Positions 3,345 through 27,426 of a DNA stretch of 64,000 nt are shown piece by piece; position 1 is the first letter of the stretch; every line of letters starts with the position of its first letter. The notes beneath the pieces were generated by a model. That model ran no database searches. It saw only the letters and a list, made by a program, of their open reading frames with translations, and had not been told where the DNA came from. Location: contig DAIUDD010000001.1 in assembly GCA_036845805.1 (NCBI GenBank), forward strand, positions 103,594 through 167,593. The letters run 5' to 3'. Both the position numbers and the translations under genes were made by a program. Origin of the DNA: Patescibacteria group bacterium. Its GTDB lineage: Bacteria; Patescibacteriota; Patescibacteriia; UBA2196.

Positions 3345-3728
3345 ATGAAATCAGTTGTATTGTGCGGTAGCCGCCGTTTCAAACTAGAAATGAGAGAGTT
3401 TGGTAAAAAGCTCAAAGAACTTGGGGTTGTTGTCTTTGAACCATATTTACATTCAGGACAAGACGAATGGCAGAAATTATCCAATGACTATAAGAAATTC
3501 GTTGCTCTTGGATTAACACACGACCATTTTTACAAGATAAAAATGGCTGATGTGGTTTTCGTTTTCAATAAAGACGGGTACGTTGGTGTTAGCACGACGC
3601 TGGAACTTGGATATGCTGTAGGAGCCGGCAAGCCAATCTATGCGCTTTCCGCCGATGAGGAGCTATGCAGGCACGTTTTATTCAGGGAGATAATCCAATC
3701 ACCTGAAGAGTTGGTGAAAATGTTGTAG
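3345..3728 (+). CDS. Nucleoside 2-deoxyribosyltransferase-like family protein
   Basis: VVLCGSRRF...ADVVFVFNKDGYVGVSTTLELGYAVGAGKPIYAL topology resembles the NDT/PF05014-like fold. GC is noticeably higher than in neighbouring genes. Confidence 0.5.
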   Translation: MKSVVLCGSRRFKLEMREFGKKLKELGVVVFEPYLHSGQDEWQKLSNDYKKFVALGLTHDHFYKIKMADVVFVFNKDGYVGVSTTLELGYAVGAGKPIYALSADEELCRHVLFREIIQSPEELVKML

Positions 3729-5568: not shown

Positions 5569-7341
5569 ATGAATAACGAACCATTAGTGAATCTTGGTAA
5601 TAATAATCAACCATTATTACCAAATGAACCCAAAATTTATACTATGCCAACTGTTGGCGACCAAACACCAGCCTCGCCCCCGCCAACACCTCCGATTAGT
5701 CCGATTAGTTCGACTTCTTTAGATTCAGCTATTAATTCTAACCAACCGTTTAATTTAAAAAATCTAGGCAGTTTATTTAGCCAAACCATAAAAATGATTT
5801 GGCAAAAAAAATGGCGATTTTTATATTTAAACATCGTTCCTAAAATTATTGGATTTTTGTTGTTTTGTATCCCCCTGGCACTCATAATTGTAATATTTGT
5901 AATCATGGTTTTAAGTAAAGGCAGCCCCATGTCTAGTTTGAGCGCCGTTGGTCTAGGAGAAATTATATTCATAGTTTTGGGTGTTATTGCATTATTACTT
6001 ATGTTTTTTGGTTTTATCTATGGTGTACTTTGGTCTCAGGCTGCCTATATTCATTATTTACAAACCCAAGAAATTTCTAAAAGAGTAATTAATAAAGCTA
6101 GTCGTAAAAAAATTTGGGGTTTATTAGGAACCACGATTATTGCTGGTTTTATGGCTTTTGGTTGGTTTATTTTATTTATGTTAGTGGCCGTACTCTGGTC
6201 TATTTTTGTTGATCGTTCTAATGTTAGCATGATTATTATCGGTATTTTAAGTTTAGTCTTTATTGTTTATTCTATTATTAGATCAATCAGGTTTAGTTTA
6301 GCTGGCATTGTTAAATTGATGGAAGGTCTGCCGGCTGTAGCTTCGGTTAGACGTAGTAAATCTCTTGTTTTTGGCTATAGTTGGCCAATTTTTAAACGCC
6401 AGATCATGCTTGGTTATTTGCAGTTTATTATTCAAATAGCTTCTTTTGTTAGTATGGCTTTAATATTTTGGTTTGGTTCAGTTAATAAATTATTTTTAAT
6501 TATAGCTATAATTTTGGGTTTAGTTGTTTTTCTTTTCATGCTTTTGATTTCATCTTTATTAGAACCGTTTAATTATGCCTACTATTATGACATTTATCAA
6601 AACTTATCAGCCATTAAGAATAAAGATGTTGGTGCCAAAGAAAAACACAGCTTAGGATATAAATTGGGCATTTTGGGTCTTTTGGTTTTATTACCATTGT
6701 TATGGATTGGTATGTTTTTTTTAAATTTAATTCTGAATAGTGGTGTCGCCGATCTTTCTGCTGTAACAAAATTAACGCCTCTTTTATCTGGTCCTGGTTT
6801 AAATTTTAATTCTAGTACTAATTTAAATCTGGAAAATTTAGATAATACCAATATCACTGATCAATCTGCCGCCTTTGATTTTCTTAAAACCTTAAGTGAT
6901 GAGAATGTTCAAGAATTAAATAATTATAGTAATCAGCTTTTTAAAGAATTACCCGGCAACCCCAACAAAGAGGATTTGCCTATCTTTAATACCGAAGAAT
7001 TTCGTCAGTTATTAAACACTGCTGGTTTTGACGCCGATAAAATTATGGCTGAATTTTCTTTAGAAAAACAAAAGTTTATTTGGAATAGTTTTTATATTGG
7101 CATGAGTTCATCTGATCCAGAAAATCAAGCACTGGATCAGCCGGCAAACGGAAATACTAATAATTTAATGTTGGAATCAGATAGTGATATTGATAGTGAT
7201 AATGATAGCTTGACTGATATAGAAGAAGAAATTTTTGGCACTGATTTAAACAATCCCGATTCTGATGGCGATGGTTATTTAGATGGCGAAGAGGTTTTAA
7301 ATGGTTATAATCCCATGGGTCCTGGTAAATTAATTCCCTAA
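5569..7341 (+). CDS. Polytopic membrane protein with Pro-rich N-terminus and acidic TSP3-like Ca-binding C-terminal tail
   Basis: Multiple hydrophobic helices in the central region. C-terminus DSDIDSDNDS...NNPDSDGDGYLDGEEVLNGYNP resembles thrombospondin type-3 (DxDxDG) repeats. Confidence 0.55.
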   Translation: MNNEPLVNLGNNNQPLLPNEPKIYTMPTVGDQTPASPPPTPPISPISSTSLDSAINSNQPFNLKNLGSLFSQTIKMIWQKKWRFLYLNIVPKIIGFLLFCIPLALIIVIFVIMVLSKGSPMSSLSAVGLGEIIFIVLGVIALLLMFFGFIYGVLWSQAAYIHYLQTQEISKRVINKASRKKIWGLLGTTIIAGFMAFGWFILFMLVAVLWSIFVDRSNVSMIIIGILSLVFIVYSIIRSIRFSLAGIVKLMEGLPAVASVRRSKSLVFGYSWPIFKRQIMLGYLQFIIQIASFVSMALIFWFGSVNKLFLIIAIILGLVVFLFMLLISSLLEPFNYAYYYDIYQNLSAIKNKDVGAKEKHSLGYKLGILGLLVLLPLLWIGMFFLNLILNSGVADLSAVTKLTPLLSGPGLNFNSSTNLNLENLDNTNITDQSAAFDFLKTLSDENVQELNNYSNQLFKELPGNPNKEDLPIFNTEEFRQLLNTAGFDADKIMAEFSLEKQKFIWNSFYIGMSSSDPENQALDQPANGNTNNLMLESDSDIDSDNDSLTDIEEEIFGTDLNNPDSDGDGYLDGEEVLNGYNPMGPGKLIP

Positions 7342-7519
7342 AATGGCAGAAATAGCTGAAAAAATAATCTTGTTTTGCCCGATGATTTGCCTTCTTTGCG
7401 ACAGCGGTTAGTTTGGCTGCAAAATTTAGCTGATCGCGGGGACGATACGGTTGTTTTTGAATTAAATATTATTAAAGAAAAAATAAATTTATTAACCAAA
7501 AAAATAAAAAAACAAAAAT

Positions 7520-8023
7520 ATGTCTCAACCTAACAAGCACCAACATTTTAAAATGAGTGATGAAAATGTACAACATCTTTTAAAACACCCGGGCAAATTA
7601 GCTCTTTTTATTGGCGTTATCTTAACCGTTTTAATTTGTGCTTTAATAGTTGCTTGGGGGCAAACAAAATCTCAAAAAAGTGATTCACCGGCTAGCAGTA
7701 TCCCTCAAAAAATTCTTACTACCGAGGAGTTAAAAGCTGATTATCAGAAATCAGTTGCCAGTATTATAAGAGAATATTGGTCAAAAAGACCCGATTTAAT
7801 TGCTGAAGCTGATATTTGTTTGCAAACTATAAACCAAACCGCCAGCCAGTTGTTAAATTTAACCGTCACTAAAGATTTTAAGGAATTGCAGCTTAAATTA
7901 GTAATTCTTTTGGATGGAGATAAAAATAATTGTCAGACTGGTCAGGAAAAGTGGCCTTTGCACTCAACCGCTGCTTGGCAAGATTTATTAGATCGCTATC
8001 CCTGGTTGATTGAAATTGAATAA
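7520..8023 (+). CDS. Hypothetical single-pass membrane protein
   Basis: One TM (LALFIGVILTVLICALIVAW). No recognisable domain. Confidence 0.45.
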   Translation: MSQPNKHQHFKMSDENVQHLLKHPGKLALFIGVILTVLICALIVAWGQTKSQKSDSPASSIPQKILTTEELKADYQKSVASIIREYWSKRPDLIAEADICLQTINQTASQLLNLTVTKDFKELQLKLVILLDGDKNNCQTGQEKWPLHSTAAWQDLLDRYPWLIEIE

Positions 8024-8121
8024 GTTATATCAGAATTTTAATTTTGTTTAACAAGATTAATAGTCTTTCATAATTAAATCTTAATTGTCCATTTTAAGTA
8101 ATATGTGGATTATCTAAAATT

Positions 8122-8883
8122 ATGTTGCTTATTAGGCGAGCATTAGTATATTTTTTAAATTTATTAAACTTATTTTTATTTTATTTAATTTTTAAAAAAC
8201 CCGAGTTTATATATTATGGCTCGATTATTTTATTATTTAGCACCGTTTTAATTAACGAATTAGTTATTGGTCGGCAAGAAAAAATAAAAGAAAAATTTTG
8301 GTTTTACGGCTGGTTTTATGTTTTTTGGTTTAGTGGCATTTCCTTTTTGCTAATTTTAGAAAGTTTATATTTTAAATATTTATTATTTTTTTTATTAGCG
8401 GTGATTTCTTTCTTTTACTGCCAAGCCATTTGGTATTATTATCACCTTAAAGATCAATATCAGCCCCATACCTTAGTTTATGTTTTTAATTATAGCTCTT
8501 TAATAAGCCTTTTCTTTTTAACGGTTTCTGGTTTTGCCTTTGATGTTTTTTTGAGTAAAAATTTTTGGCTGGCGCCTTTAATTATTAGTTTTTTGGCCAT
8601 ATTTATTTTTGCTCAAAATATGTGGTTTAATAAACTAGATTATAAAGAAAAAAAGAGAGACCTGTTGATTGTTTGGTTATTATTTACCGAATTAATTTTA
8701 ATTTTTTCTTGGTGGCCAATCAGTTATTATGTTAAAGCCGGTTTGGTTGCAATTAGTTATTTTTTAATCACTAATTTTTTAATTTCTCGTTCAGTTAAAG
8801 ATTCGCGTTCCATTTCTTGGTATCATTTATTAATTATTTTTATTACTATTATTATACTTTTATTAACTGCCCGTTGGTATTAA
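8122..8883 (+). CDS. Hypothetical polytopic membrane protein
   Basis: About 8 hydrophobic segments rich in F/W/Y. No recognisable motif. Confidence 0.45.
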   Translation: MLLIRRALVYFLNLLNLFLFYLIFKKPEFIYYGSIILLFSTVLINELVIGRQEKIKEKFWFYGWFYVFWFSGISFLLILESLYFKYLLFFLLAVISFFYCQAIWYYYHLKDQYQPHTLVYVFNYSSLISLFFLTVSGFAFDVFLSKNFWLAPLIISFLAIFIFAQNMWFNKLDYKEKKRDLLIVWLLFTELILIFSWWPISYYVKAGLVAISYFLITNFLISRSVKDSRSISWYHLLIIFITIIILLLTARWY

Positions 8884-8884
8884 T

Positions 8885-10111
8885 ATGAGCAAAAAAATTT
8901 TTATTTCAAAAAAAATTAAAAGTCATGATTCAGTTGAAAGTAAATCAATTCCAGAAAACATTAACAATGATTCTTGGGAGGAGTATTATCGTTCTAATAA
9001 TCTAATTAAACCAGCACCAACTTCTACCAAGACCATGGTTATTAGTTTAGTAATCGCTGTTTTTTTCGGTTTTCTATCTGGTTTCTTATCAGTGTTGCTT
9101 TTTTTATCTGGTTCTTTTTCTCAATCCAAAATATTTTCTTGGTTGGACATTAATTCACTTTTACCCACCGCCAATGTACTTATTGAAAGACAAGAACAAA
9201 CCACGGTTATTGAAGACGAGCGAATAAAAGAAGTCGCTGAAGCGATTGCCCCGACCGTTGCCAGTATTTTAAATGTCAAAAAACAAAGTGGCAAACCAGA
9301 ACAAGATTTCTATCAACCAAGTGATTTTGTGGCTAATGCTTTTGTTTTAACAAGTGACGGTTGGTTAGTAACCGGAAACGAAGGAATTTCTTCAGTCGGC
9401 AAATATCTGGTGTTGATTAATAATAAAATTTTACCAGTAGAAAATATTAAATTAGATAGTGATTTGGGGCTTGTTTTTTTAAAAGTTAAAGCCGAAAATT
9501 TAATGGTTAGTTCTTTTGGTAAATTTTCTGAAGCACGTTTTGGCGAGAGAATTCTTCTCTGGTCTGGTATGGAAGGATACAATAAAAAACTTTTAGTTTC
9601 ACGTTTGGGTGCCAATCGATTAGTATTTGATAAAAAAAATATTTTTTCTAGCGAAAAGCCATATTTATTTTTTGCGCCATCTTTTGAGCTTAATCAAGAG
9701 CTTGCTAATCTGCCCGTTTTTAATTTAAACAAAGATTTTATTGGTTTATTTAATAATAGAAATATTCCTTATATTATTCCCGCCGAATATATTAAAAAGT
9801 CATTAACTCAAATTATTGCTTTGGGCGATGTTAAACCAACCTATTTGGGGATTGAGTTTATAGATTTATCTATTTCTAACGTTGCTGGCTATCAAAGCGG
9901 TGGCGCTTTAATTACTGCGCTAAAAAAGGATTCACCTCTTTTTTCACAAGCTACTCTGGGTGATGTGGTTGTCAAAATCGGTGAGGACCTAATTAATCAA
10001 AATAATAGTTTAACTAATATTTTGCAAATTTATCGTCCCGGGGATAAAGTAAAATTTACTCTTAGGACCAAAGAAGGTATAGAAAAAATTATCGACGTCG
10101 AATTAAAATAA
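8885..10111 (+). CDS. Membrane-anchored trypsin-like (HtrA-family) domain protein with C-terminal PDZ domain; catalytic triad apparently degenerate
   Basis: N-terminal TM. Central region aligns loosely to S1C protease but lacks the His and GNSGGP motifs. C-terminus GGALITALKKDSPLFSQATLGDVVVKIGED...PGDKVKFTLR is PDZ-like. Confidence 0.45.
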   Translation: MSKKIFISKKIKSHDSVESKSIPENINNDSWEEYYRSNNLIKPAPTSTKTMVISLVIAVFFGFLSGFLSVLLFLSGSFSQSKIFSWLDINSLLPTANVLIERQEQTTVIEDERIKEVAEAIAPTVASILNVKKQSGKPEQDFYQPSDFVANAFVLTSDGWLVTGNEGISSVGKYLVLINNKILPVENIKLDSDLGLVFLKVKAENLMVSSFGKFSEARFGERILLWSGMEGYNKKLLVSRLGANRLVFDKKNIFSSEKPYLFFAPSFELNQELANLPVFNLNKDFIGLFNNRNIPYIIPAEYIKKSLTQIIALGDVKPTYLGIEFIDLSISNVAGYQSGGALITALKKDSPLFSQATLGDVVVKIGEDLINQNNSLTNILQIYRPGDKVKFTLRTKEGIEKIIDVELK

Positions 10112-20246: not shown

Positions 20247-20296
20247 ATTTATATCATATCATTTTGTTGATAATTATACCATTTTTGAGTTTAGTT

Positions 20297-20325
20297 TTGA
20301 CAAAACTTTTATTTTTTGGTAGAAT
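20297..20325 (+). promoter_or_regulatory. Sigma70-type promoter for rnpB
   Basis: TTGACA, 17-bp spacer, TAGAAT. Ends about 6 nt before the predicted P1 stem of RNase P RNA. Confidence 0.5.
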
Positions 20326-20330
20326 ATTAT

Positions 20331-20720
20331 GGTCCAGGTAGATGAGTGATCGCTTCGGCTTAATGTCGGGGAGGAAAGTCCGGACATCTCAATGTTAAGA
20401 CATTGAATAAAGATAATCGCGAAACGCGACCGAGTATAAGAATTACAATAAGAAAAATAGATCACGATCGTTTTATTTTTCTTTTGGTCAAATTCAAAAC
20501 TCCGAGCCAGTGCCACAGAAAATAAACCGCCCTGCATCCTACGTGGTGCAAGGTAAGGGTGAAAACGTGGTGTAAGAGACCACGCACTTCTATGGCGACA
20601 TAGATTTGGGTAAACCTTATCTGGTGCAAGTAGTAAAATCTACGCTTAGATAGATGATCACACTCATTCGCAATAATTAGCGTTTGGGACAGAATCCGGC
20701 TTATGATTCTGCCTGGACAT
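20331..20720 (+). ncRNA. rnpB: RNase P RNA (bacterial type A)
   Basis: GGAGGAAAGTCCGGAC (P4 5' strand), AGGGTGAAA, GGTAAACC, ACAGAATCCGGCTTA (P4 3' strand). P1 pairing GTCCAGGTAGA/TCTGCCTGGAC. Confidence 0.8.
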
Positions 20721-20800
20721 AAAAAATCAAAATTTAAAATTATTAATTCTAAATTTTGCACTGTCATTTTACGTTTTGATTTTTACATTTTAATTTATTT

Positions 20801-22256: not shown

Positions 22257-22400
22257 TTACCCTTAATTTCTAATTTCTATATTTCATTATTTCTTAATTT
22301 ACTTTTTGCCTTTCCCTTTGTCTCTTGCTAAGATAAACATAGATATCCCCAGGCTTATCTATTATCCTGGTTAATTGGTCAAGAAATTTTAGATATTTTT

Positions 22401-23486
22401 ATGAAAATTGCTTTGATTAATGACATGTTGGTTCAAGAGGGCGGCCAAGAGCGTGTGCTTCGCGCCTTGCAAGAGCTTTATCCCGAAGCCCCGACTTTTG
22501 TTTTGGTTTATGATAAGAAACAAAAAGAAAAATATTACGCCGATAAAAAAATAATACCAACTTTTTTACAAAAATTACCTTATGTTGAAAATAAATATCA
22601 ATGGTATTTACCACTAATGTCAACAGCTATTGAATCACTAGACTTGCGTTCTTTTGATTTGATTATTTCCTCCAGTTCTTCGTTGGCTAAAGGTGTTTTA
22701 GTTAAGCCCGGGGCCATACATCTGTGTTATTGTCATACTCCTACCAGGTATTTATGGTCTGAATGGCATGGCTATGTTGAAGATTTGCCATATAATAATT
22801 TTATTAAAAAAATATTGCCTTTTTATTTATCGCATTTGCGCAATTGGGATTATGCCGCTGCTCAGCGAGTTGATCATTTTATTGCTAATTCTAAAACCGT
22901 ACAAGCTAGAATTAAAAAATATTATCAGAAAGATTCACACATTATTTATCCGCCAGTCGATACAGAAAAATTTTTCATTTCTTCTCGCTTGAGTGATTAT
23001 TATTTAATTGGGGGTCGTTTAGTGGCTTACAAGCGTTATGATCTGGCCATCCAGGCTTTTAATAGACTTGGCTTGCCCTTAAAAATTTTTGGTAATGGCC
23101 CCGAATTTACTCGTCTCAAATCAATAGCCAAAAAAAATATTGAATTTTTGGGTGACATCTCTGAAACAGAAAAAACCCGCTTATTTAGCGAGTGTTTGGC
23201 TTTTATTAACCCCCAGGAAGAAGATTTTGGCATTACCACAATTGAAGCCATGGCTGCTGGCCGGCCAGTCATTGCCTATCATGCCGGCGGCGCTACTGAG
23301 ACTGTTTTAGAACATCAAACTGGACAATTTTTTAATGATCAAACTTGGGAAGATTTGGCTGATACTATTATTCATTTTCAACCAGAAAAATATGATCCAT
23401 ATTTAATTAAAGAACATGCGGAAAAATTTAATAAAAAGAGATTTATGACCGAAGTAAAAAATTTTATTGATAGTCGTCTTAAATAA
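22401..23486 (+). CDS. Glycosyltransferase family 4
   Basis: EDFGITTIEAMAAGRPVIAYHAGGATETV is the EX7E-type GT4 C-terminal motif. Confidence 0.8.
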   Translation: MKIALINDMLVQEGGQERVLRALQELYPEAPTFVLVYDKKQKEKYYADKKIIPTFLQKLPYVENKYQWYLPLMSTAIESLDLRSFDLIISSSSSLAKGVLVKPGAIHLCYCHTPTRYLWSEWHGYVEDLPYNNFIKKILPFYLSHLRNWDYAAAQRVDHFIANSKTVQARIKKYYQKDSHIIYPPVDTEKFFISSRLSDYYLIGGRLVAYKRYDLAIQAFNRLGLPLKIFGNGPEFTRLKSIAKKNIEFLGDISETEKTRLFSECLAFINPQEEDFGITTIEAMAAGRPVIAYHAGGATETVLEHQTGQFFNDQTWEDLADTIIHFQPEKYDPYLIKEHAEKFNKKRFMTEVKNFIDSRLK

Positions 23487-23493
23487 TATAAAA

Positions 23494-23520
23494 CCCCGAG
23501 CTAATAGCCCGGGGTAATTT
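23494..23520. terminator. Hairpin between convergent genes (bidirectional terminator candidate)
   Basis: CCCCG-AGCTAATAGCC-CGGGG stem-loop flanked by A/T runs. Confidence 0.35.
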
Positions 23521-23535
23521 TCACTCCAGATGTTT

Positions 23536-25008
23536 TTATTTTGTCAAAACAAGACGCTTGGTTTGGCTGAAGTTTCCGGCCTCCAAGCGATAGAAATAAA
23601 TACCGCTGGGCAAACCCATCGCATTCCAGATCACCCGGTGCACACCAGGACACTGCTGCTCGTTGACCAACAAGGTCACCAGCTGGCCCATGAGGTCATA
23701 GATTGCCAGCCGTACAAGTCCTTCCCGAGGCAGCGAATATTCGATGGCGGTTTCGGGATTGAATGGGTTAGGGTAGTTCTGCAATAAAGAAAATTCGACT
23801 GGCACAGTCATGGCGTTTTCCACGCCTGTCATGCGCCAATCCCCAGGTGGTGGCGGTGGTTGAAGATTTGAATCAATGGACAGCATCTCAGGATTTTCGC
23901 TAAGCAGCACGCCCTGGCTTATACCTTTTGCCAGATATTGTTGCTGCGGCATAAAAAACAAGACGCAACTTGACGTTGCATATGCCCAGAAGCCCTTACC
24001 AGCTTGTGTACTGCTCATTGGCATTAGCGGGTAGTATGATCTGCTCCCGCCGTCGTATCCAAACAAGTGTAATTTAAAGTTTGGATCGCTTGGCGGTGCC
24101 AACACTGACAAACAATTTGCCAGCGGCTCGTAATAATTCGGAAACGCCACCAATTGCCATTTCTCTTTCTCCAATGAAACCGAGTCGGTTTCATTATCGA
24201 AAAGAACAACGGAATAATCTCTCGGTTCTCCTTTCCAATAAGTTCCCCCGCCATAGCTCGGCAGCCAAAAAACATTATCCACCCGGCTGGCATTTTTATC
24301 CGAATTGGTCGGAATAAAACCCGACGGTCGATAGAGACCGGGTGCGTTGTAATCCAGAAAAAAAATCTTTTCACCCGGCACCTCGATGTCCAGCTGTGAA
24401 ACCGGGAAATCATATTCCAGATATACCGGCGTGCTGGCAATTTCCCAGCCCATATTGTAAAACACGCGAACGCCCTCTTTGATTCTAACTAAGCCAAGAT
24501 CCAAGACGCTTGGTTCGCACCAAGTTGGATCACTGTTTGGTTGGGTTAATGCCAAAATCCGTTGATTTTTTATTTGGAACTTGATCCAGTCGCCATCATG
24601 GAAGTGCTCATTCACATCCATAATGGCATAAAAATGCGATTCGCCCCAAGTTTGCACAATGGGCGGATCAAACGAAATTACGAATTCGTTGACCCATTCT
24701 GCCTTGGACAGTTCAATACCCGATTGATCCAATATCCTCATAGACATCAGATCCGTGGGTGTGGCGTCACTCTCTCCGTTGATCGAAAAATCTATGATCA
24801 GATTATATGAGACACACATATATTGAGTGGTGTCACCGGGAAACTCTGGGATAAACCGGGAAGAAAAAGAAAACATGTACTGGTTTGAAAAGCCAGGTTT
24901 CACAGTTACTTGATTGTTGTAACCGTTAAAAACCAGGACGGGGTTGCCAGCCACGGCCACAAAAGCCATAGTCAGAATTAAACTTACTACCAACAATTGC
25001 TTCTTCAT
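23536..25008 (-). CDS. Secreted protein with C-terminal T9SS (Por secretion) type-A sorting domain; GC-rich, probably foreign
   Basis: Signal peptide MKKQLLVVSLILTMAFVAVAG. C-terminus LLQNYPNPFNPETAIEYSLPREGLVRLAIYDLMGQLV...SGIYFYRLEAGNFSQTKRLVLTK matches the T9SS CTD consensus. ORF GC is about 50% versus about 30% in flanks. Confidence 0.7.
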   Translation of the reverse strand: MKKQLLVVSLILTMAFVAVAGNPVLVFNGYNNQVTVKPGFSNQYMFSFSSRFIPEFPGDTTQYMCVSYNLIIDFSINGESDATPTDLMSMRILDQSGIELSKAEWVNEFVISFDPPIVQTWGESHFYAIMDVNEHFHDGDWIKFQIKNQRILALTQPNSDPTWCEPSVLDLGLVRIKEGVRVFYNMGWEIASTPVYLEYDFPVSQLDIEVPGEKIFFLDYNAPGLYRPSGFIPTNSDKNASRVDNVFWLPSYGGGTYWKGEPRDYSVVLFDNETDSVSLEKEKWQLVAFPNYYEPLANCLSVLAPPSDPNFKLHLFGYDGGSRSYYPLMPMSSTQAGKGFWAYATSSCVLFFMPQQQYLAKGISQGVLLSENPEMLSIDSNLQPPPPPGDWRMTGVENAMTVPVEFSLLQNYPNPFNPETAIEYSLPREGLVRLAIYDLMGQLVTLLVNEQQCPGVHRVIWNAMGLPSGIYFYRLEAGNFSQTKRLVLTK

Positions 25009-25103
25009 TTCTACCTCCTGTGCTTATTCTTTTGTAACGTTAATTAAAAAACCCCATTTTTTGGGATTTTTAATTATAACAATTAATTTATTTTTTGTCA
25101 AGA

Positions 25104-25556
25104 TTATTTATTTTTTATCTTATCAATAAACAAAATTCCGTCTAAATGATCAATTTCGTGTTGTAAAACGCGCGCTAAAATATCCTTCGCGTTTAAAGTA
25201 TGTTTTTGTCCGGCCATATCCCAAAAACTAATTTTAACGCTAGTTGGCCTTTTTACATTAGCAAAAACGCCGGGTACTGATAGACAACCTTCTTCCATTA
25301 TTATTTTGCGCCAAGATTTTTTCTTTATTTCCGGATTAATAAAAGCCACTGGTCCGTCTTCAGTGTTAACCACAATTAATCTTTTTAAAATTCCAACTTG
25401 CGGCGCTGCCAAACCCACGCCGTCTTTTTTTATCATTGTTTCAGCCATGTCTGTGACTGTTTTTTTAAAATTTTTATCATCCAATTCGTTTTTGGTAATT
25501 GGTTGTGATTTTTTTCTTAATTCTGGGTTGGGATTAATTAAAATATTTAACAGCAT
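25104..25556 (-). CDS. def: Peptide deformylase
   Basis: GVGLAAPQVG, EGCLSVPG and QHEIDHLDG, the three PDF motifs. Confidence 0.9.
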   Translation of the reverse strand: MLLNILINPNPELRKKSQPITKNELDDKNFKKTVTDMAETMIKKDGVGLAAPQVGILKRLIVVNTEDGPVAFINPEIKKKSWRKIIMEEGCLSVPGVFANVKRPTSVKISFWDMAGQKHTLNAKDILARVLQHEIDHLDGILFIDKIKNK

Positions 25557-25611
25557 AAATTTTAATAAAAATTATTACCAATTATAATTTAATTATAAAA
25601 AATAGTCAAAC

Positions 25612-27426
25612 TTAATTAATTTTTTCCACATCGACGTCAATTATAACATCTGCGGGCATGAGTTTAAAAATTTGTGGCAGTTCAAAGTTTAGAGGCACCT
25701 TAATAATCACATTAACTATTGATTTTTTTATTTTTTCTTCCTCGGTTATCAATGGTCCGATAATTTCTATTTTTTTATTTTTTATTTTTTCATTCAAAAT
25801 ATTAATTATTTTTTCTGCTTTTAAAACCGCGGTTTTTTTATTTTTATCTTGGCAAATCAACTTAATTAAGCGGCCATACGGGGGATAAAAAAACAGTTGG
25901 CGGTTAGCTAGTTCTTCTTGATAAAATATTTCCGGTTTATTTTGTTGGTTACTTTTTATAATATAATTATCTGGCTCATGAGTTTGGATAATTATTTCAG
26001 CCAAGCTCGTCGCTCTTATCTGAGCCAGTAATTGATAGGCTTTTTCCCCAGCCCGAAAATCAGCTTGGTTTAAAAATTGTCCAAAATCAGTAAAGATTAT
26101 TAAAGCAAAATTTGTTAAATCTATTTTATTAATGATAAACTCTGTCGCTACTAATATTTCTGTTTCTGGCAAAATGTCAGCGCCCAAAATTTTATCACTC
26201 GCCATTATTTTTTTATTGATATATTTTTTTTGTAATTCTTTTTTTATTTTTTCCACCCCCGGTGTCTTAAATTTAATGTTTGGTCCGGCGCATTTTGGAC
26301 ACAGGGGCGGCATTTCTTCTTGATAGCCGCAGTGTCGGCATAAAATGTTTTTATTTTTTTCTAAATAAGCCATTGATTTAAAGCACTTGGGGCATTTAAA
26401 AACATAACCACAATCATTGCAAAACAAGTAATTAGCCAGAGCTTTGCGGTTGTGTAAAATCAAAATTTTTTGCTTTTGATTTATGGTTTGAGTTATTTTT
26501 CTTTCAGTTAATTCACCTAAAAAATTAAAATTTCCAGCCATTTTTTCTTTTTTTAAATCAACTGTTAAAAAATTTTTATAGTTTTTATCTCTCACGTCTT
26601 TTATGTTTTTTATATGTTGGTAATCTTCTGGGGTCGGAGCGGCGGTGATTAGGGTCAAATTGGCCGTTAAAAGATCTGCCAGCCAATTAGCGACTAATCT
26701 GGCATCAAATCGGGGGTTAATGTCAGATTGTTTATAATACCAAGATTCGGCTTGAATGATAAAAATTTCTGGCAGGTTAATAAAAGGCAAAAGGACCGCT
26801 TTTTGTGTCCCCACCACAATGATCGGTTTTCCGGCTAGCAATTTTAAATAATTTTCTGTAAAATATTTTTCTTTTGTTTTGCTGGAGCAAAAAAATACCT
26901 CATCAGTGTTTAGTTTTAATTTTCTTATTATTTCTTTTTGTTTCTCAATTTCGGGCACCAATATTAATATTTGTTTTTTGTTTTTTATATTCTTTATTTT
27001 ATCGGCCATCATTTCTAGTGCTTTTTTTTCATTATTATGCCACCATAGTTCTTTTCTATTTTTTTTATTTATTTTCCTATCACTGGGTATAAAAAATGAA
27101 TCAATTTTTATTTTTGTTTTTGGTATGATTGATTTAATTAGAGTTGTTTTGGCTACAGCCAAATTTTCAGCCATCCGGGTTATTAAAGATAATTGTTCAT
27201 TAGTAATAATTTTTTTATTAATTAATGAATCTATTTTTTTTAATGGAAATTGATGTTTATTTTTTTCTGTGATATCAATCACCAGACCAGAGATATTTTT
27301 TCCTCGAAAATTAATTTTAACCAGGCTGCCTATTTGTAGTTCTTTTTTTAATGGCAAAGGCACCACATAGCTAAAATATGGCAATTTTAAAGGTAAACGC
27401 AAAAGTGGTAAGATGTGTGCAATCAT
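25612..27426 (-). CDS. priA: Primosomal protein N' (PriA)-like protein with degenerate helicase motifs
   Basis: N-terminal 3'-DNA-binding-like region. LVPEI, SYKQ...PRFDAR and TAAPTPEDY blocks. Cys-rich CNDCGYVFKCPKCF...CRHCG...CPKCAG zinc-binding region. No GxGKT Walker A. DEEH box replaced by QAES. Confidence 0.65.
   Translation of the reverse strand: MIAHILPLLRLPLKLPYFSYVVPLPLKKELQIGSLVKINFRGKNISGLVIDITEKNKHQFPLKKIDSLINKKIITNEQLSLITRMAENLAVAKTTLIKSIIPKTKIKIDSFFIPSDRKINKKNRKELWWHNNEKKALEMMADKIKNIKNKKQILILVPEIEKQKEIIRKLKLNTDEVFFCSSKTKEKYFTENYLKLLAGKPIIVVGTQKAVLLPFINLPEIFIIQAESWYYKQSDINPRFDARLVANWLADLLTANLTLITAAPTPEDYQHIKNIKDVRDKNYKNFLTVDLKKEKMAGNFNFLGELTERKITQTINQKQKILILHNRKALANYLFCNDCGYVFKCPKCFKSMAYLEKNKNILCRHCGYQEEMPPLCPKCAGPNIKFKTPGVEKIKKELQKKYINKKIMASDKILGADILPETEILVATEFIINKIDLTNFALIIFTDFGQFLNQADFRAGEKAYQLLAQIRATSLAEIIIQTHEPDNYIIKSNQQNKPEIFYQEELANRQLFFYPPYGRLIKLICQDKNKKTAVLKAEKIINILNEKIKNKKIEIIGPLITEEEKIKKSIVNVIIKVPLNFELPQIFKLMPADVIIDVDVEKIN

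What the first reader, a model, noticed from the sequence alone, without database searches (positions are those of the whole stretch)
23494..25103. ORF-sized GC-rich island encoding a type IX secretion (T9SS) cargo protein in a genome that otherwise looks like a reduced, outer-membrane-less bacterium
The 490-aa minus-strand ORF has a signal peptide and a textbook T9SS C-terminal sorting domain (…LLQNYPNPFNPETAIEYSLP…IYFYRLEAGNFSQTKRLVL). That domain is characteristic of Bacteroidota/FCB-group and related diderm phyla. Its GC is about 50% (sampled stretches 50-53%) against about 30% for every flanking gene and intergenic spacer. The GC shift starts and stops almost exactly at the ORF boundaries. 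No T9SS machinery genes (porK/L/M/N, sov, porU/V) are visible in the window. Candidate explanations are a recent horizontal acquisition, a chimeric metagenomic contig, or co-option of the CTD as a surface-anchoring module. The central domain has no recognisable catalytic motif.
Basis: partly seen in the sequence, partly recalled or inferred. Interest (0 to 1): 0.8.

Follow-up and report, generated by a model that had tools for sequence, protein, structure and literature searches.

The report
Borrowed secretion-tagged gene in ultra-small bacterium
One gene for an exported protein carrying the C-terminal "address tag" of the type IX secretion system, a machine of Bacteroidetes-like double-membraned bacteria, has been horizontally inserted into the genome of an ultra-small Patescibacteria (CPR) bacterium. 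The insertion is real rather than an assembly error, but what the protein does there is unknown.

Summary
ORF 23536-25008 (-), 490 aa, has 46.6% GC against 31.8% for the rest of the window. Its GC3 is 0.52 against 0.26±0.04 (z 6.1), and its tetranucleotide distance has z 10.4. The maximum-likelihood GC segment, 23553-24968, lies inside the ORF. The C-terminus passes the curated type A T9SS sorting-domain models (TIGR04183 42 bits, cut-off 23; PF18962 33.6, cut-off 27).

It is not a chimera. Contigs from nine samples and several assemblers cross the junctions at 99.96-100% identity, and three assemblies share a synonymous SNP. The host is Patescibacteria-like, judged by its nearest named PriA relatives. 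Two relatives keep the same gene order (…GAPDH-PriA-Def-[slot]-GT4-sugar transferase) but lack the gene, so it is a lineage-specific single-gene insertion. The gene has a 12/12 σ70 promoter, an AGGAGG ribosome-binding site and a terminator.

The first 395 residues (signal peptide plus N-terminal region) are an orphan, with one real homologue among 1.84 billion representative proteins, so the donor is unsampled. The most likely reading is a horizontally acquired T9SS-type cargo gene, now exported by Sec alone, with an orphaned or co-opted tag. NCBI already annotates it as a T9SS sorting-domain protein. Moderately interesting.

The parts
25073..25101 (-). σ70-type promoter TTGACA-17 nt-TATAAT with a TG extension, starting 3 nt after the def stop codon
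   Evidence: 12 of 12 consensus matches, the only perfect site in 22300-25700. It lies in an AT-rich spacer. Function is inferred, not shown.
25041..25076 (-). Small A-tract/GC-stem/T-tract hairpin overlapping the -10 box and the predicted transcript start. It may be the def terminator, which transcripts from the downstream promoter would bypass.
   Evidence: Inverted repeat I16: 14-nt arms, 93% complementary, 8-nt loop. The role is inferred.
25014..25019 (-). Shine-Dalgarno sequence AGGAGG, 5 nt before the ATG at 25008
   Evidence: Read from the sequence. It supports the 490-aa start over the 477-aa start of the NCBI record (P0001).
24946..25008 (-). Sec-type signal peptide, residues 1-21: MKKQLLVVSLILTMAFVAVA|G. 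No lipobox cysteine.
   Evidence: Read from the translation; no predictor was available. P0002 has an equivalent N-terminus, and AF2 models it as a helix.
23797..24945 (-). Orphan, predicted all-β region (residues 22-404), ending in a Pro-rich linker (PPPPPG, residues 384-389)
   Evidence: No Pfam or PDB sequence match. The only real homologue in 1.84 billion representative proteins is P0002 (E 1.9e-44). AF2 pLDDT is below 50 over most of the region and never reaches 70. Motifs conserved with P0002 include NASRVDNVFW and DSVSLEK.
23539..23796 (-). Type A T9SS C-terminal sorting domain (residues about 405-490), ending …GIYFYRLEAGNFSQTKRLVLTK
   Evidence: TIGR04183 42 bits (cut-off 23) and PF18962 33.6 bits (cut-off 27). 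132 bits against a home-made CTD HMM. It matches 47 of 55 consensus columns of 119 related CTDs. AF2 block-mean pLDDT is 68-84 over residues 421-490, and Foldseek matches the RemA CTD 8gl6_D with probability 1.0. GC3 is 0.70-0.75 here, against about 0.5 upstream.
23536..25008 (-). The complete coding sequence (490 codons plus stop); this is the compositional island
23493..23515 (-). Intrinsic terminator hairpin ACCCCGGGC-TATTA-GCTCGGGGT followed by TTTAT, lying between the convergent ORF and the GT4 gene
   Evidence: 10-pair stem with 7 G-C pairs.
25104..25556 (-). Native upstream neighbour: peptide deformylase (def). It forms one side of the insertion slot.
   Evidence: PF01327. PriA-Def synteny is kept in relatives L014 and L015.
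22401..23486 (+). Native downstream neighbour: GT4 glycosyltransferase. It forms the other side of the slot.
   Evidence: PF00534 and PF13439. The orthologous GT4 followed by a Bac_transf gene is kept in L014 and L015.

Best explanation
This is a single-gene horizontal acquisition. A gene for a canonical type IX secretion cargo protein (Sec signal peptide, about 380 aa of all-β passenger, Pro-rich linker, type A CTD) came from an unsampled mid-GC donor, most plausibly an FCB-group bacterium. It was inserted into the variable slot between def and a GT4 glycosyltransferase gene, inside a conserved surface-glycan cluster of a Patescibacteria (CPR) bacterium with about 32% GC.

Shown:
- The gene is real.
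- It is compositionally foreign from its first codon to its last.
- It is absent from the same slot in two syntenic relatives.
- It is present in every sampled contig of this population.

Inferred:
- It is transcribed from its own consensus σ70 promoter and translated from a strong ribosome-binding site.
- It is exported across the single cytoplasmic membrane by Sec and signal peptidase I. With no outer membrane or T9SS to cross, that step alone would place it outside the cell.
- The CTD cannot act as a sorting signal there. It is either a vestigial Ig-like β-sandwich or is reused as a binding module. The passenger most likely acts as an extracellular or surface binding protein.
For: Composition: (GC3 z 6.1, tetranucleotide z 10.4, segment boundaries inside the ORF, GC3 about 0.5 already in the signal-peptide codons).

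CTD membership.

Not an artefact:
- The exact protein is on 16 contigs and def on 17. Every contig long enough shows def-ORF-GT4.
- The contigs come from ENA, NCBI, JGI and Logan assemblies of nine samples and are 99.96-100% identical to the window over their overlaps, across one or both junctions.
- A synonymous SNP at 24961 is shared by three independent assemblies.

Insertion: relatives L014 and L015 (PriA 42-43% identical) keep radical SAM-GT4-GtrA-…-GAPDH-PriA-Def-[slot]-GT4-Bac_transf. Their slots hold unrelated 115-aa and 61-aa ORFs, and tblastn finds no trace of the gene.

Host: the closest PriA relatives that carry names are 'Patescibacteria group bacterium', and the longest contig carrying these genes is 722 kb.

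Expression signals.

T9SS distribution: T9SS is described as confined to the FCB superphylum, and the type A CTD is TIGR04183 (PMC11205867).

Donor type: the best CTD matches (50-64% identity) that carry names are Zixibacteria, Ignavibacteria, Calditrichaeota, Marinimicrobia and Bacteroidota. One such locus has 44.6% GC, close to the ORF.
Against: - No donor was identified. The passenger domain has only one homologue (P0002, 32-36% identity). That homologue sits with native codon usage (GC3 0.35 vs 0.31±0.05) in another low-GC genome of undetermined phylum, so an FCB origin for the whole gene is an inference from the CTD alone.
- There are no mobility genes or convincing flanking repeats. The 15-nt repeat has a third copy nearby and is probably chance.
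- Only about 64 kb of a genome of at least 722 kb was screened for T9SS or outer-membrane genes.
- Host taxonomy rests on one marker.
- Expression, export and any function are unshown.
- One synonymous SNP is too little to demonstrate purifying selection.
Confidence: 0.72

Rival explanations
1. Neutral passenger. The gene was acquired recently, does nothing useful in the CPR cell, and has simply not yet decayed. The promoter match is fortuitous in AT-rich DNA.
For: Composition is unameliorated. The population is almost clonal, with 0-2 SNPs in up to 21 kb, so there has been little time for decay. The CTD has no cognate machinery in this phylum (PMC11205867). The slot also holds unrelated small ORFs in relatives.
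Against: The 490-codon ORF is intact in all contigs from nine samples. It has a perfect 12/12 promoter with TG extension, an AGGAGG site at ideal spacing and a terminator. The only SNP in the ORF is synonymous. CPR genomes are streamlined and tend to lose useless DNA (general knowledge).
Confidence: 0.17
2. Co-opted tag. The CTD is retained because it works outside the cell. It might dock the CPR cell or its protein onto surface-exposed T9SS components (PorV, or the PorU/PorZ attachment complex) of an FCB-group host or neighbour. Alternatively it might anchor the protein to the CPR's own glycan coat.
For: The CTD matches the consensus at 47 of 55 columns, including the terminal motifs. It is far better conserved between the two family members than the passenger is (about 55% vs 32% identity). 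The gene lies in a 50-kb surface-glycan cluster. CPR bacteria are commonly episymbionts (general knowledge).
Against: There is no direct evidence. CTD conservation is equally explained by its history in T9SS-bearing donors. The glycan cluster exists without the gene in relatives, so the location may be incidental. No literature links T9SS CTDs with CPR.
Confidence: 0.06
3. Assembly or binning chimera: a fragment of an FCB-group genome was spliced into a CPR contig.
For: The composition switches sharply at the ORF ends.
Against: SPAdes, MEGAHIT, Logan, JGI and NCBI MAG assemblies from nine samples give the same junction sequences. The junction DNA is unique: the only repeats are short chance-level ones. 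The gene sits in host-like AT-rich spacers with a correctly placed promoter, ribosome-binding site and terminator. A SNP allele is shared across assemblies.
Confidence: 0.01
4. Native gene or diderm host. Either the organism does possess a T9SS and outer membrane, or the gene is an old resident whose GC is kept high by selection.
For: Only about 64 kb of the genome was inspected. The one homologue (P0002) is compositionally native in another small low-GC genome.
Against: The nearest named PriA relatives are Patescibacteria. Two syntenic relatives lack the gene. The GC difference is largest at synonymous third positions, which selection on the protein would not produce. The window has no T9SS or outer-membrane families.
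Confidence: 0.04

Closest known systems
Type A CTD cargo proteins of the type IX secretion system (TIGR04183 / PF18962; e.g. F. johnsoniae RemA, P. gingivalis gingipains)
   Same: The architecture is the same: Sec signal peptide, passenger, linker, then a roughly 80-aa Ig-like CTD at the extreme C-terminus. The CTD scores above both curated cut-offs, keeps the terminal GxYxYxL and KxxxLxK-type motifs, and superposes on the RemA CTD.
   Different: It is encoded in a Patescibacteria-like genome with no T9SS genes in view, as a compositionally foreign single-gene insert. The passenger belongs to no known enzyme, adhesin or other family.
P0002, a 491-aa protein on 145-171 kb contigs (JGI 3300005915; GTDB representative contig CAZNIO010000001.1)
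   Same: It is the only full-length homologue: 34-36% identity, the same length and domain order, and shared motifs NASRVDNVFW and DSVSLEK plus the CTD.
   Different: Its composition is native to its genome (GC3 0.35 vs 0.31±0.05). It has a different neighbourhood (CNNM, infA-S13-S11-S4-rpoA). The host is undetermined: the record is titled Gammaproteobacteria, but its S4 and AlaS are no closer to E. coli than to Thermus or Aquifex.
Single-gene horizontally acquired islets in CPR/Patescibacteria genomes (general phenomenon)
   Same: Atypical GC and codon usage, absence from syntenic relatives, and insertion in a variable intergenic slot.
   Different: The cargo is the substrate of a secretion system that the recipient phylum is not known to have, so the acquired protein carries a tag with no cognate reader.
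FlgD Ig-like domain (PF13860) and CHU_C type B CTD (PF13585)
   Same: Both are related small β-sandwich C-terminal modules, and both give weak sub-threshold hits over the same residues.
   Different: The scores are far below the gathering cut-offs: 13.9-18.4 bits for CHU_C and 15.1 bits for FlgD_ig (P0002 only), against a cut-off of 27. The type A model is clearly the best fit.

Membership tests
T9SS type A CTD cargo protein (TIGR04183 / PF18962) | C-terminal domain matching the curated type A sorting-domain models above their cut-offs, located at the extreme C-terminus | tested here: met
   TIGR04183 42.0 bits (cut-off 23) and PF18962 33.6 bits (cut-off 27), residues 412-487 of 490. PDB profile hit to the Por CTD chain 8glj_D, E 0.006.
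T9SS type A CTD cargo protein (TIGR04183 / PF18962) | Ig-like β-sandwich fold of the CTD | tested here: met
   AF2 gives seven strands, with block-mean pLDDT of 68-84 over residues 421-490. Foldseek matches the RemA CTD 8gl6_D with probability 1.00 and TM 0.61 normalised on the target.
T9SS type A CTD cargo protein (TIGR04183 / PF18962) | N-terminal Sec signal peptide for export to the periplasm | tested here: met
   MKK, a 15-residue hydrophobic core and AVA|G, read from the translation. No dedicated predictor was available, so this is sequence inspection only.
T9SS type A CTD cargo protein (TIGR04183 / PF18962) | Encoded in a genome that has the T9SS core (GldK/L/M/N, SprA/Sov, PorV, PorU, etc.) and an outer membrane | tested here: not met
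   None found among the genes of the 64-kb window. The host's nearest named relatives are Patescibacteria. The rest of the genome (at least 722 kb) could not be screened, so 'not met' applies to the window only.
T9SS type A CTD cargo protein (TIGR04183 / PF18962) | CTD-dependent translocation, then cleavage by PorU and attachment to A-LPS | not testable with these tools
   This needs experiments, such as CTD-reporter secretion in F. johnsoniae or proteomics of the mature protein.
Horizontally acquired gene (genomic islet) | Composition and codon usage deviating from the host genome | tested here: met
   GC3 z 6.1, tetranucleotide z 10.4, GC segment 23553-24968.
Horizontally acquired gene (genomic islet) | Absent from the orthologous site in related genomes | tested here: met
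   L014 and L015 keep the flanking synteny but lack the gene.
Horizontally acquired gene (genomic islet) | Identifiable donor lineage, or phylogeny nested within a donor clade | tested here: inconclusive
   CTD-only matches point to FCB-group phyla. The passenger has a single homologue in a host of undetermined phylum, so no tree is possible.
Horizontally acquired gene (genomic islet) | Mobility signatures (integrase, transposase, tRNA target, flanking repeats, phage origin) | tested here: not met
   No such genes next to the ORF. The only flanking repeat is a 15-nt AT-rich one with a third copy nearby. No match in viral contigs.

The most novel reading that the evidence does not exclude
The CPR bacterium keeps an intact T9SS sorting tag because the tag works from the outside. 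After Sec export, the CTD is recognised by surface-exposed T9SS components (PorV, or the PorU/PorZ attachment complex) of an FCB-group host cell. The symbiont's protein, or the symbiont itself, is thereby tethered to the host surface, or even covalently grafted onto it. This would be a case of a parasite hijacking its host's secretion-attachment machinery. A weaker variant is that the two-member family is a CPR-resident surface-protein family that reuses the CTD fold as an anchor.
Probability: 0.06. Interest if true: 0.85.

Novelty: new member of a known kind. Interest (0 to 1): 0.45.

Why it matters
T9SS and its CTD-tagged cargo are regarded as a hallmark of the FCB superphylum. An intact, apparently expressible cargo gene fixed in a Patescibacteria population is therefore a clean, well-documented example of cross-phylum transfer into a streamlined, presumably single-membraned episymbiont-type genome.

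It matters in three ways:
- It is a concrete lead to the ecological partner or neighbour of an uncultured CPR lineage, because the donor type is inferred from the tag.
- It is a natural experiment on what happens to a secretion tag when its machinery is missing.
- It warns that a 'T9SS sorting domain' annotation does not imply a T9SS.

The passenger domain is also a near-unique orphan, with two members among about 15 billion proteins, and its function is open.

Tried and rejected
- **Structure of the passenger.** Two AF2 runs, one on the window protein and one on P0002, each had only a 2-sequence alignment. Mean pLDDT was 41 and 39, with the passenger mostly below 50. Apart from the CTD hit, the Foldseek PDB list is therefore meaningless.
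- **More family members.**
  - A word-index search with the first 395 residues found only the window's own protein.
  - The exhaustive HMMER search found P0002 plus a spurious repeat protein, P0256.
  - The viral-contig scan found nothing.
  - The metagenome scan found only P0002's contig and CTD-only hits.
- **Pfam and PDB at permissive thresholds.** Nothing for the passenger.
- **Host taxonomy from GTDB species representatives, using PriA.** No locus was found. The third protein search was used instead.
- **Phylum of P0002's host.**
  - The record title ('Gammaproteobacteria') is contradicted by S4 and AlaS comparisons.
  - Rfam and tRNA scans of the locus were empty.
  - Cluster names were absent.
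  - The Bin Chicken supplement says only that coassembly co181 targeted taxon JAHJDO01.
  - The Ace Lake paper was no help.
  - tblastn found nothing shared with the window lineage.
- **Extending beyond the window ends.** Two look-ups failed because the mechanical TTG starts were wrong, and two returned only short contigs.
- **The 15-nt direct repeat flanking the ORF as a target-site duplication.** Rejected as probable chance, because it is AT-rich and has a third copy 25 nt away.
- **Antisense ORFs inside the gene** (23530-23787 +, 24081-24317 +, 24562-24810 +). Treated as mechanical, because the minus-strand ORF has the homologue and the domain hits.
Full report
**1. Observation**

The region contains one long ORF, 23536-25008 on the minus strand, encoding 490 aa.
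- Its GC content is 46.6%, against 31.8% for the rest of the 64-kb window. No other window of the same length exceeds 37.6% (z 5.8).
- At 200-bp resolution GC rises from 0.27-0.33 to 0.50-0.53 at the ORF's 3' end and falls back to 0.27-0.34 past its 5' end.
- A two-state maximum-likelihood segmentation of 21-28 kb places the island at 23553-24968, inside the ORF. The ORF's tetranucleotide distance from the window is 10.4 SD above that of 199 control windows.
- The shift is strongest at synonymous positions. GC3 is 0.517, against 0.263±0.042 in 55 other ORFs (z 6.1), and codon preferences differ (CTG 0.34 vs 0.06, AAG 0.41 vs 0.10, TTA 0.11 vs 0.52).
- GC3 is already about 0.5 in the signal-peptide codons and reaches 0.70-0.75 in the last 70 codons.

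**2. The sorting domain**

- Residues 412-487 match TIGR04183 (42.0 bits, cut-off 23) and Pfam PF18962 (33.6 bits, cut-off 27). The type B model CHU_C is far below threshold.
- An HMM built from the C-termini of 119 database hits scores the ORF at 132 bits and finds no second CTD-bearing ORF in six frames of the window.
- The CTD agrees with the consensus of those hits at 47 of 55 well-conserved columns, including QNYPNPFNP…SGIYFYRL…TK..L.K.
- AF2 models this part with block-mean pLDDT of 68-84 over residues 421-490. Foldseek aligns it to the RemA CTD in the T9SS translocon complex (8gl6_D, probability 1.0).
- A PDB sequence-profile search returns only a Por CTD chain (8glj_D).
- The N-terminus (MKKQLLVVSLILTMAFVAVA|G) reads as a Sec/SPase I signal peptide without a lipobox (sequence inspection).

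The protein therefore has the canonical architecture of a type A T9SS cargo. NCBI already annotates the 477-aa version as 'T9SS type A sorting domain-containing protein [bacterium]'.

**3. Not an artefact**

- The exact 490-aa protein is recorded on 16 contigs and the neighbouring def on 17. Every contig long enough shows PriA-Def-ORF-GT4.
- The contigs come from ENA (ERZ795056, ERZ761564, ERZ27257431), NCBI (GCA_964469195.1), Logan (SRR5007219, SRR5007225, SRR4244858) and JGI (3300009782, 3300025855). They were built with different assemblers.
- They are 99.96-100% identical to the window over their overlaps, across one or both junctions.
- Three independent assemblies share a synonymous T/C variant at 24961.
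- No contig of this population lacks the gene. The chimera hypothesis is effectively excluded.

**4. Host and neighbourhood**

- The window encodes RNR, TyrS/TrpS, L33, QueH, a Mur ligase, RNase P RNA (20334-20720), GAPDH, PriA and Def.
- From about 13.6 kb to the window end it is dominated by a surface-glycan cluster, interrupted by a few housekeeping genes (RNase P RNA, GAPDH, PriA, def). The cluster includes many GT4 and GT2 enzymes, PMT_2-type transferases, GtrA, Bac_transf, radical-SAM enzymes, methyltransferases, epimerases, a flippase and a carbamoyltransferase.
- No T9SS or outer-membrane biogenesis family appears, including among the unannotated ORFs.
- PriA's closest relatives (38-43% identity, full length) form a distinct group, and its named members are 'Patescibacteria group bacterium'. 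The next hits are Firmicutes at 24-32% identity.
- The longest contig carrying these genes is 722 kb.
- I therefore take the host to be a CPR/Patescibacteria bacterium. That this phylum lacks an outer membrane and a T9SS is general knowledge, not tested here. T9SS is described as confined to the FCB superphylum (PMC11205867).
- Full-text searches found no paper linking T9SS CTDs to CPR.

**5. Evidence for insertion**

- Two relatives keep the order radical SAM-GT4-GtrA-…-GT4-GAPDH-PriA-Def-[slot]-GT4-Bac_transf. They are L014 (GCA_040961635.1, 389-kb contig, 37% GC) and L015 (JGI 3300009105, 206-kb contig, 30% GC).
- In both, the slot holds only a short unrelated ORF: a 115-aa Cys-rich protein in L014 and a 61-aa ORF in L015. 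tblastn with the window protein finds nothing there.
- The def-GT4 slot is therefore a variable site, and the T9SS-type gene is a lineage-specific single-gene insertion.
- No integrase, transposase or tRNA gene is adjacent, and there is no convincing repeat. A 15-nt AT-rich repeat at 23533-23547 and 25087-25101 has a third copy 25 nt away and is probably chance.
- Viral contigs contain no relative.

**6. Expression signals**

- Three nucleotides after the def stop lies a perfect TTGACA-17-TATAAT promoter with a TG extension (25101-25073). It is followed by AGGAGG 5 nt before the ATG.
- A 10-bp-stem terminator (23515-23493) follows the stop codon.
- These elements lie in AT-rich, host-like spacers. 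Function is inferred from consensus only.

**7. The passenger and the donor**

- The first 395 residues have no Pfam or PDB match.
- An exhaustive HMMER search of 1.84 billion cluster representatives found one real homologue, P0002 (E 1.9e-44, 32% identity over this region), and one spurious repeat protein. Scans of metagenome contigs added nothing.
- P0002 (491 aa) has the same architecture. It lies, with native composition (GC3 0.35 vs 0.31±0.05), in a 36%-GC genome next to CNNM and infA-S13-S11-S4-rpoA-L17-L13-S9.
- Its GTDB-representative record is titled 'uncultured Gammaproteobacteria bacterium'. However, its S4 and AlaS score no better against E. coli than against Thermus or Aquifex. 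I regard that host as undetermined.
- All other hits cover the CTD only, at 50-64% identity. The named ones come from Zixibacteria, Ignavibacteria, Calditrichaeota, Marinimicrobia and Bacteroidota. One such locus has 44.6% GC.
- The donor is therefore unsampled. An FCB-group, mid-GC donor is the most economical inference, but it rests on the tag.
- Both AF2 attempts failed for the passenger. They suggest only an all-β region.

**8. Mechanism (inferred)**

The gene is probably transcribed on its own, and the protein is exported by Sec and released from the membrane by signal peptidase I. In a cell with a single membrane this already places it outside. The CTD then has no translocon, PorV shuttle or PorU sortase to engage, so it persists as an Ig-like module, either vestigial or reused for binding.

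My weights for the readings:
- Horizontally acquired, real and probably expressed extracellular protein with an orphaned tag: about 0.7.
- Silent neutral passenger: about 0.17.
- Active co-option of the tag, for example docking onto surface-exposed T9SS components of an FCB-group partner: about 0.06.
- Native gene or diderm host: about 0.04.
- Chimera: about 0.01.

**9. Novelty and verdict**

- The protein is a new, compositionally foreign member of a very large known class, and it is already auto-annotated as such.
- What is unusual is the recipient, the clean empty-site evidence and the orphan passenger.
- It is worth a note and a few cheap follow-ups: a whole-genome T9SS screen, meta-omics for expression, and a CTD-reporter assay. 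It is not a new kind of system on present evidence.
- Interest 0.45.

Noticed in passing
window 3345-3728 (+): A 127-aa ORF with a weak nucleoside 2-deoxyribosyltransferase-like Pfam hit is the second compositional outlier in the window (GC 41.7%, GC3 0.44 against a mean of 0.26). It may be another foreign gene.
   Followed up: no
window 20334-20720 (+): Bacterial class A RNase P RNA (158.8 bits). The mechanical minus-strand ORFs 20274-20537 and 20462-20767 overlap it and are spurious.
   Followed up: partly
window 23539-23750 (-), last ~70 codons of the ORF: GC3 in the CTD-coding part is 0.70-0.75, against about 0.5 in the rest of the gene. This hints that the tag and the passenger may have different histories, for example domain shuffling in the donor. 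The sample is small, at 40-codon windows.
   Followed up: partly
window 23533-23547, 25087-25101 and 25112-25126: A 15-nt direct repeat (TTGACAAAA[A/T]AAA on the minus strand) brackets the ORF: one copy spans the stop codon and the other the -35 box. A third copy lies 25 nt away, so it is probably chance in AT-rich DNA, but it could mark the recombination site.
   Followed up: partly
window 24961: A synonymous T/C polymorphism inside the ORF is shared by three independent assemblies (ERZ761564, ERZ27257431, JGI 3300009782). Otherwise the population is nearly clonal across samples.
   Followed up: yes
window ~13.6-64 kb: An unusually long cell-surface glycan biosynthesis region of about 50 kb, interrupted by RNase P RNA, GAPDH, PriA and def. 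It has more than 12 glycosyltransferases, several PMT_2/TMEM260-like transferases, GtrA, three or more radical-SAM enzymes (two B12-binding), Asn synthase, a carbamoyltransferase, a flippase and epimerases. Its core is syntenic in distant relatives.
   Followed up: partly
window 25612-27426 (-); P0121: The PriA of this lineage gives only the 3'-DNA-binding-domain Pfam hit (PF17764). Its closest relatives also hit the Zn-ribbon and C-terminal domains, and more distant PriA proteins hit the helicase domains. This PriA is divergent and possibly degenerate.
   Followed up: no
L014 10409-10756 (-) and L015 10451-10636 (-): The def-GT4 slot in the two relatives carries different small ORFs: a 115-aa protein with four CxxC-like pairs (zinc-ribbon-like) in L014 and a 61-aa ORF in L015. 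The slot seems to be a hotspot for lineage-specific genes.
   Followed up: partly
L008 / L017 (contig CAZNIO010000001.1): The GTDB-representative record carrying P0002 is titled 'uncultured Gammaproteobacteria bacterium'. However, the contig's S4 scores 188 bits against Thermus and 158 against E. coli, and its AlaS (only 587 aa) is closest to Aquifex. The contig is probably mislabelled or mis-binned.
   Followed up: partly
window 8885-10111 (+): A 408-aa protein with no Pfam hit has a C-terminal region resembling part of HtrA/DegP-family proteases (TIGR02037, E 6e-13, far below the family cut-off). It lies in a run of four unannotated ORFs (5569-10111) followed by a CAP-domain protein, possibly a block of secreted or surface proteins.
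   Followed up: no
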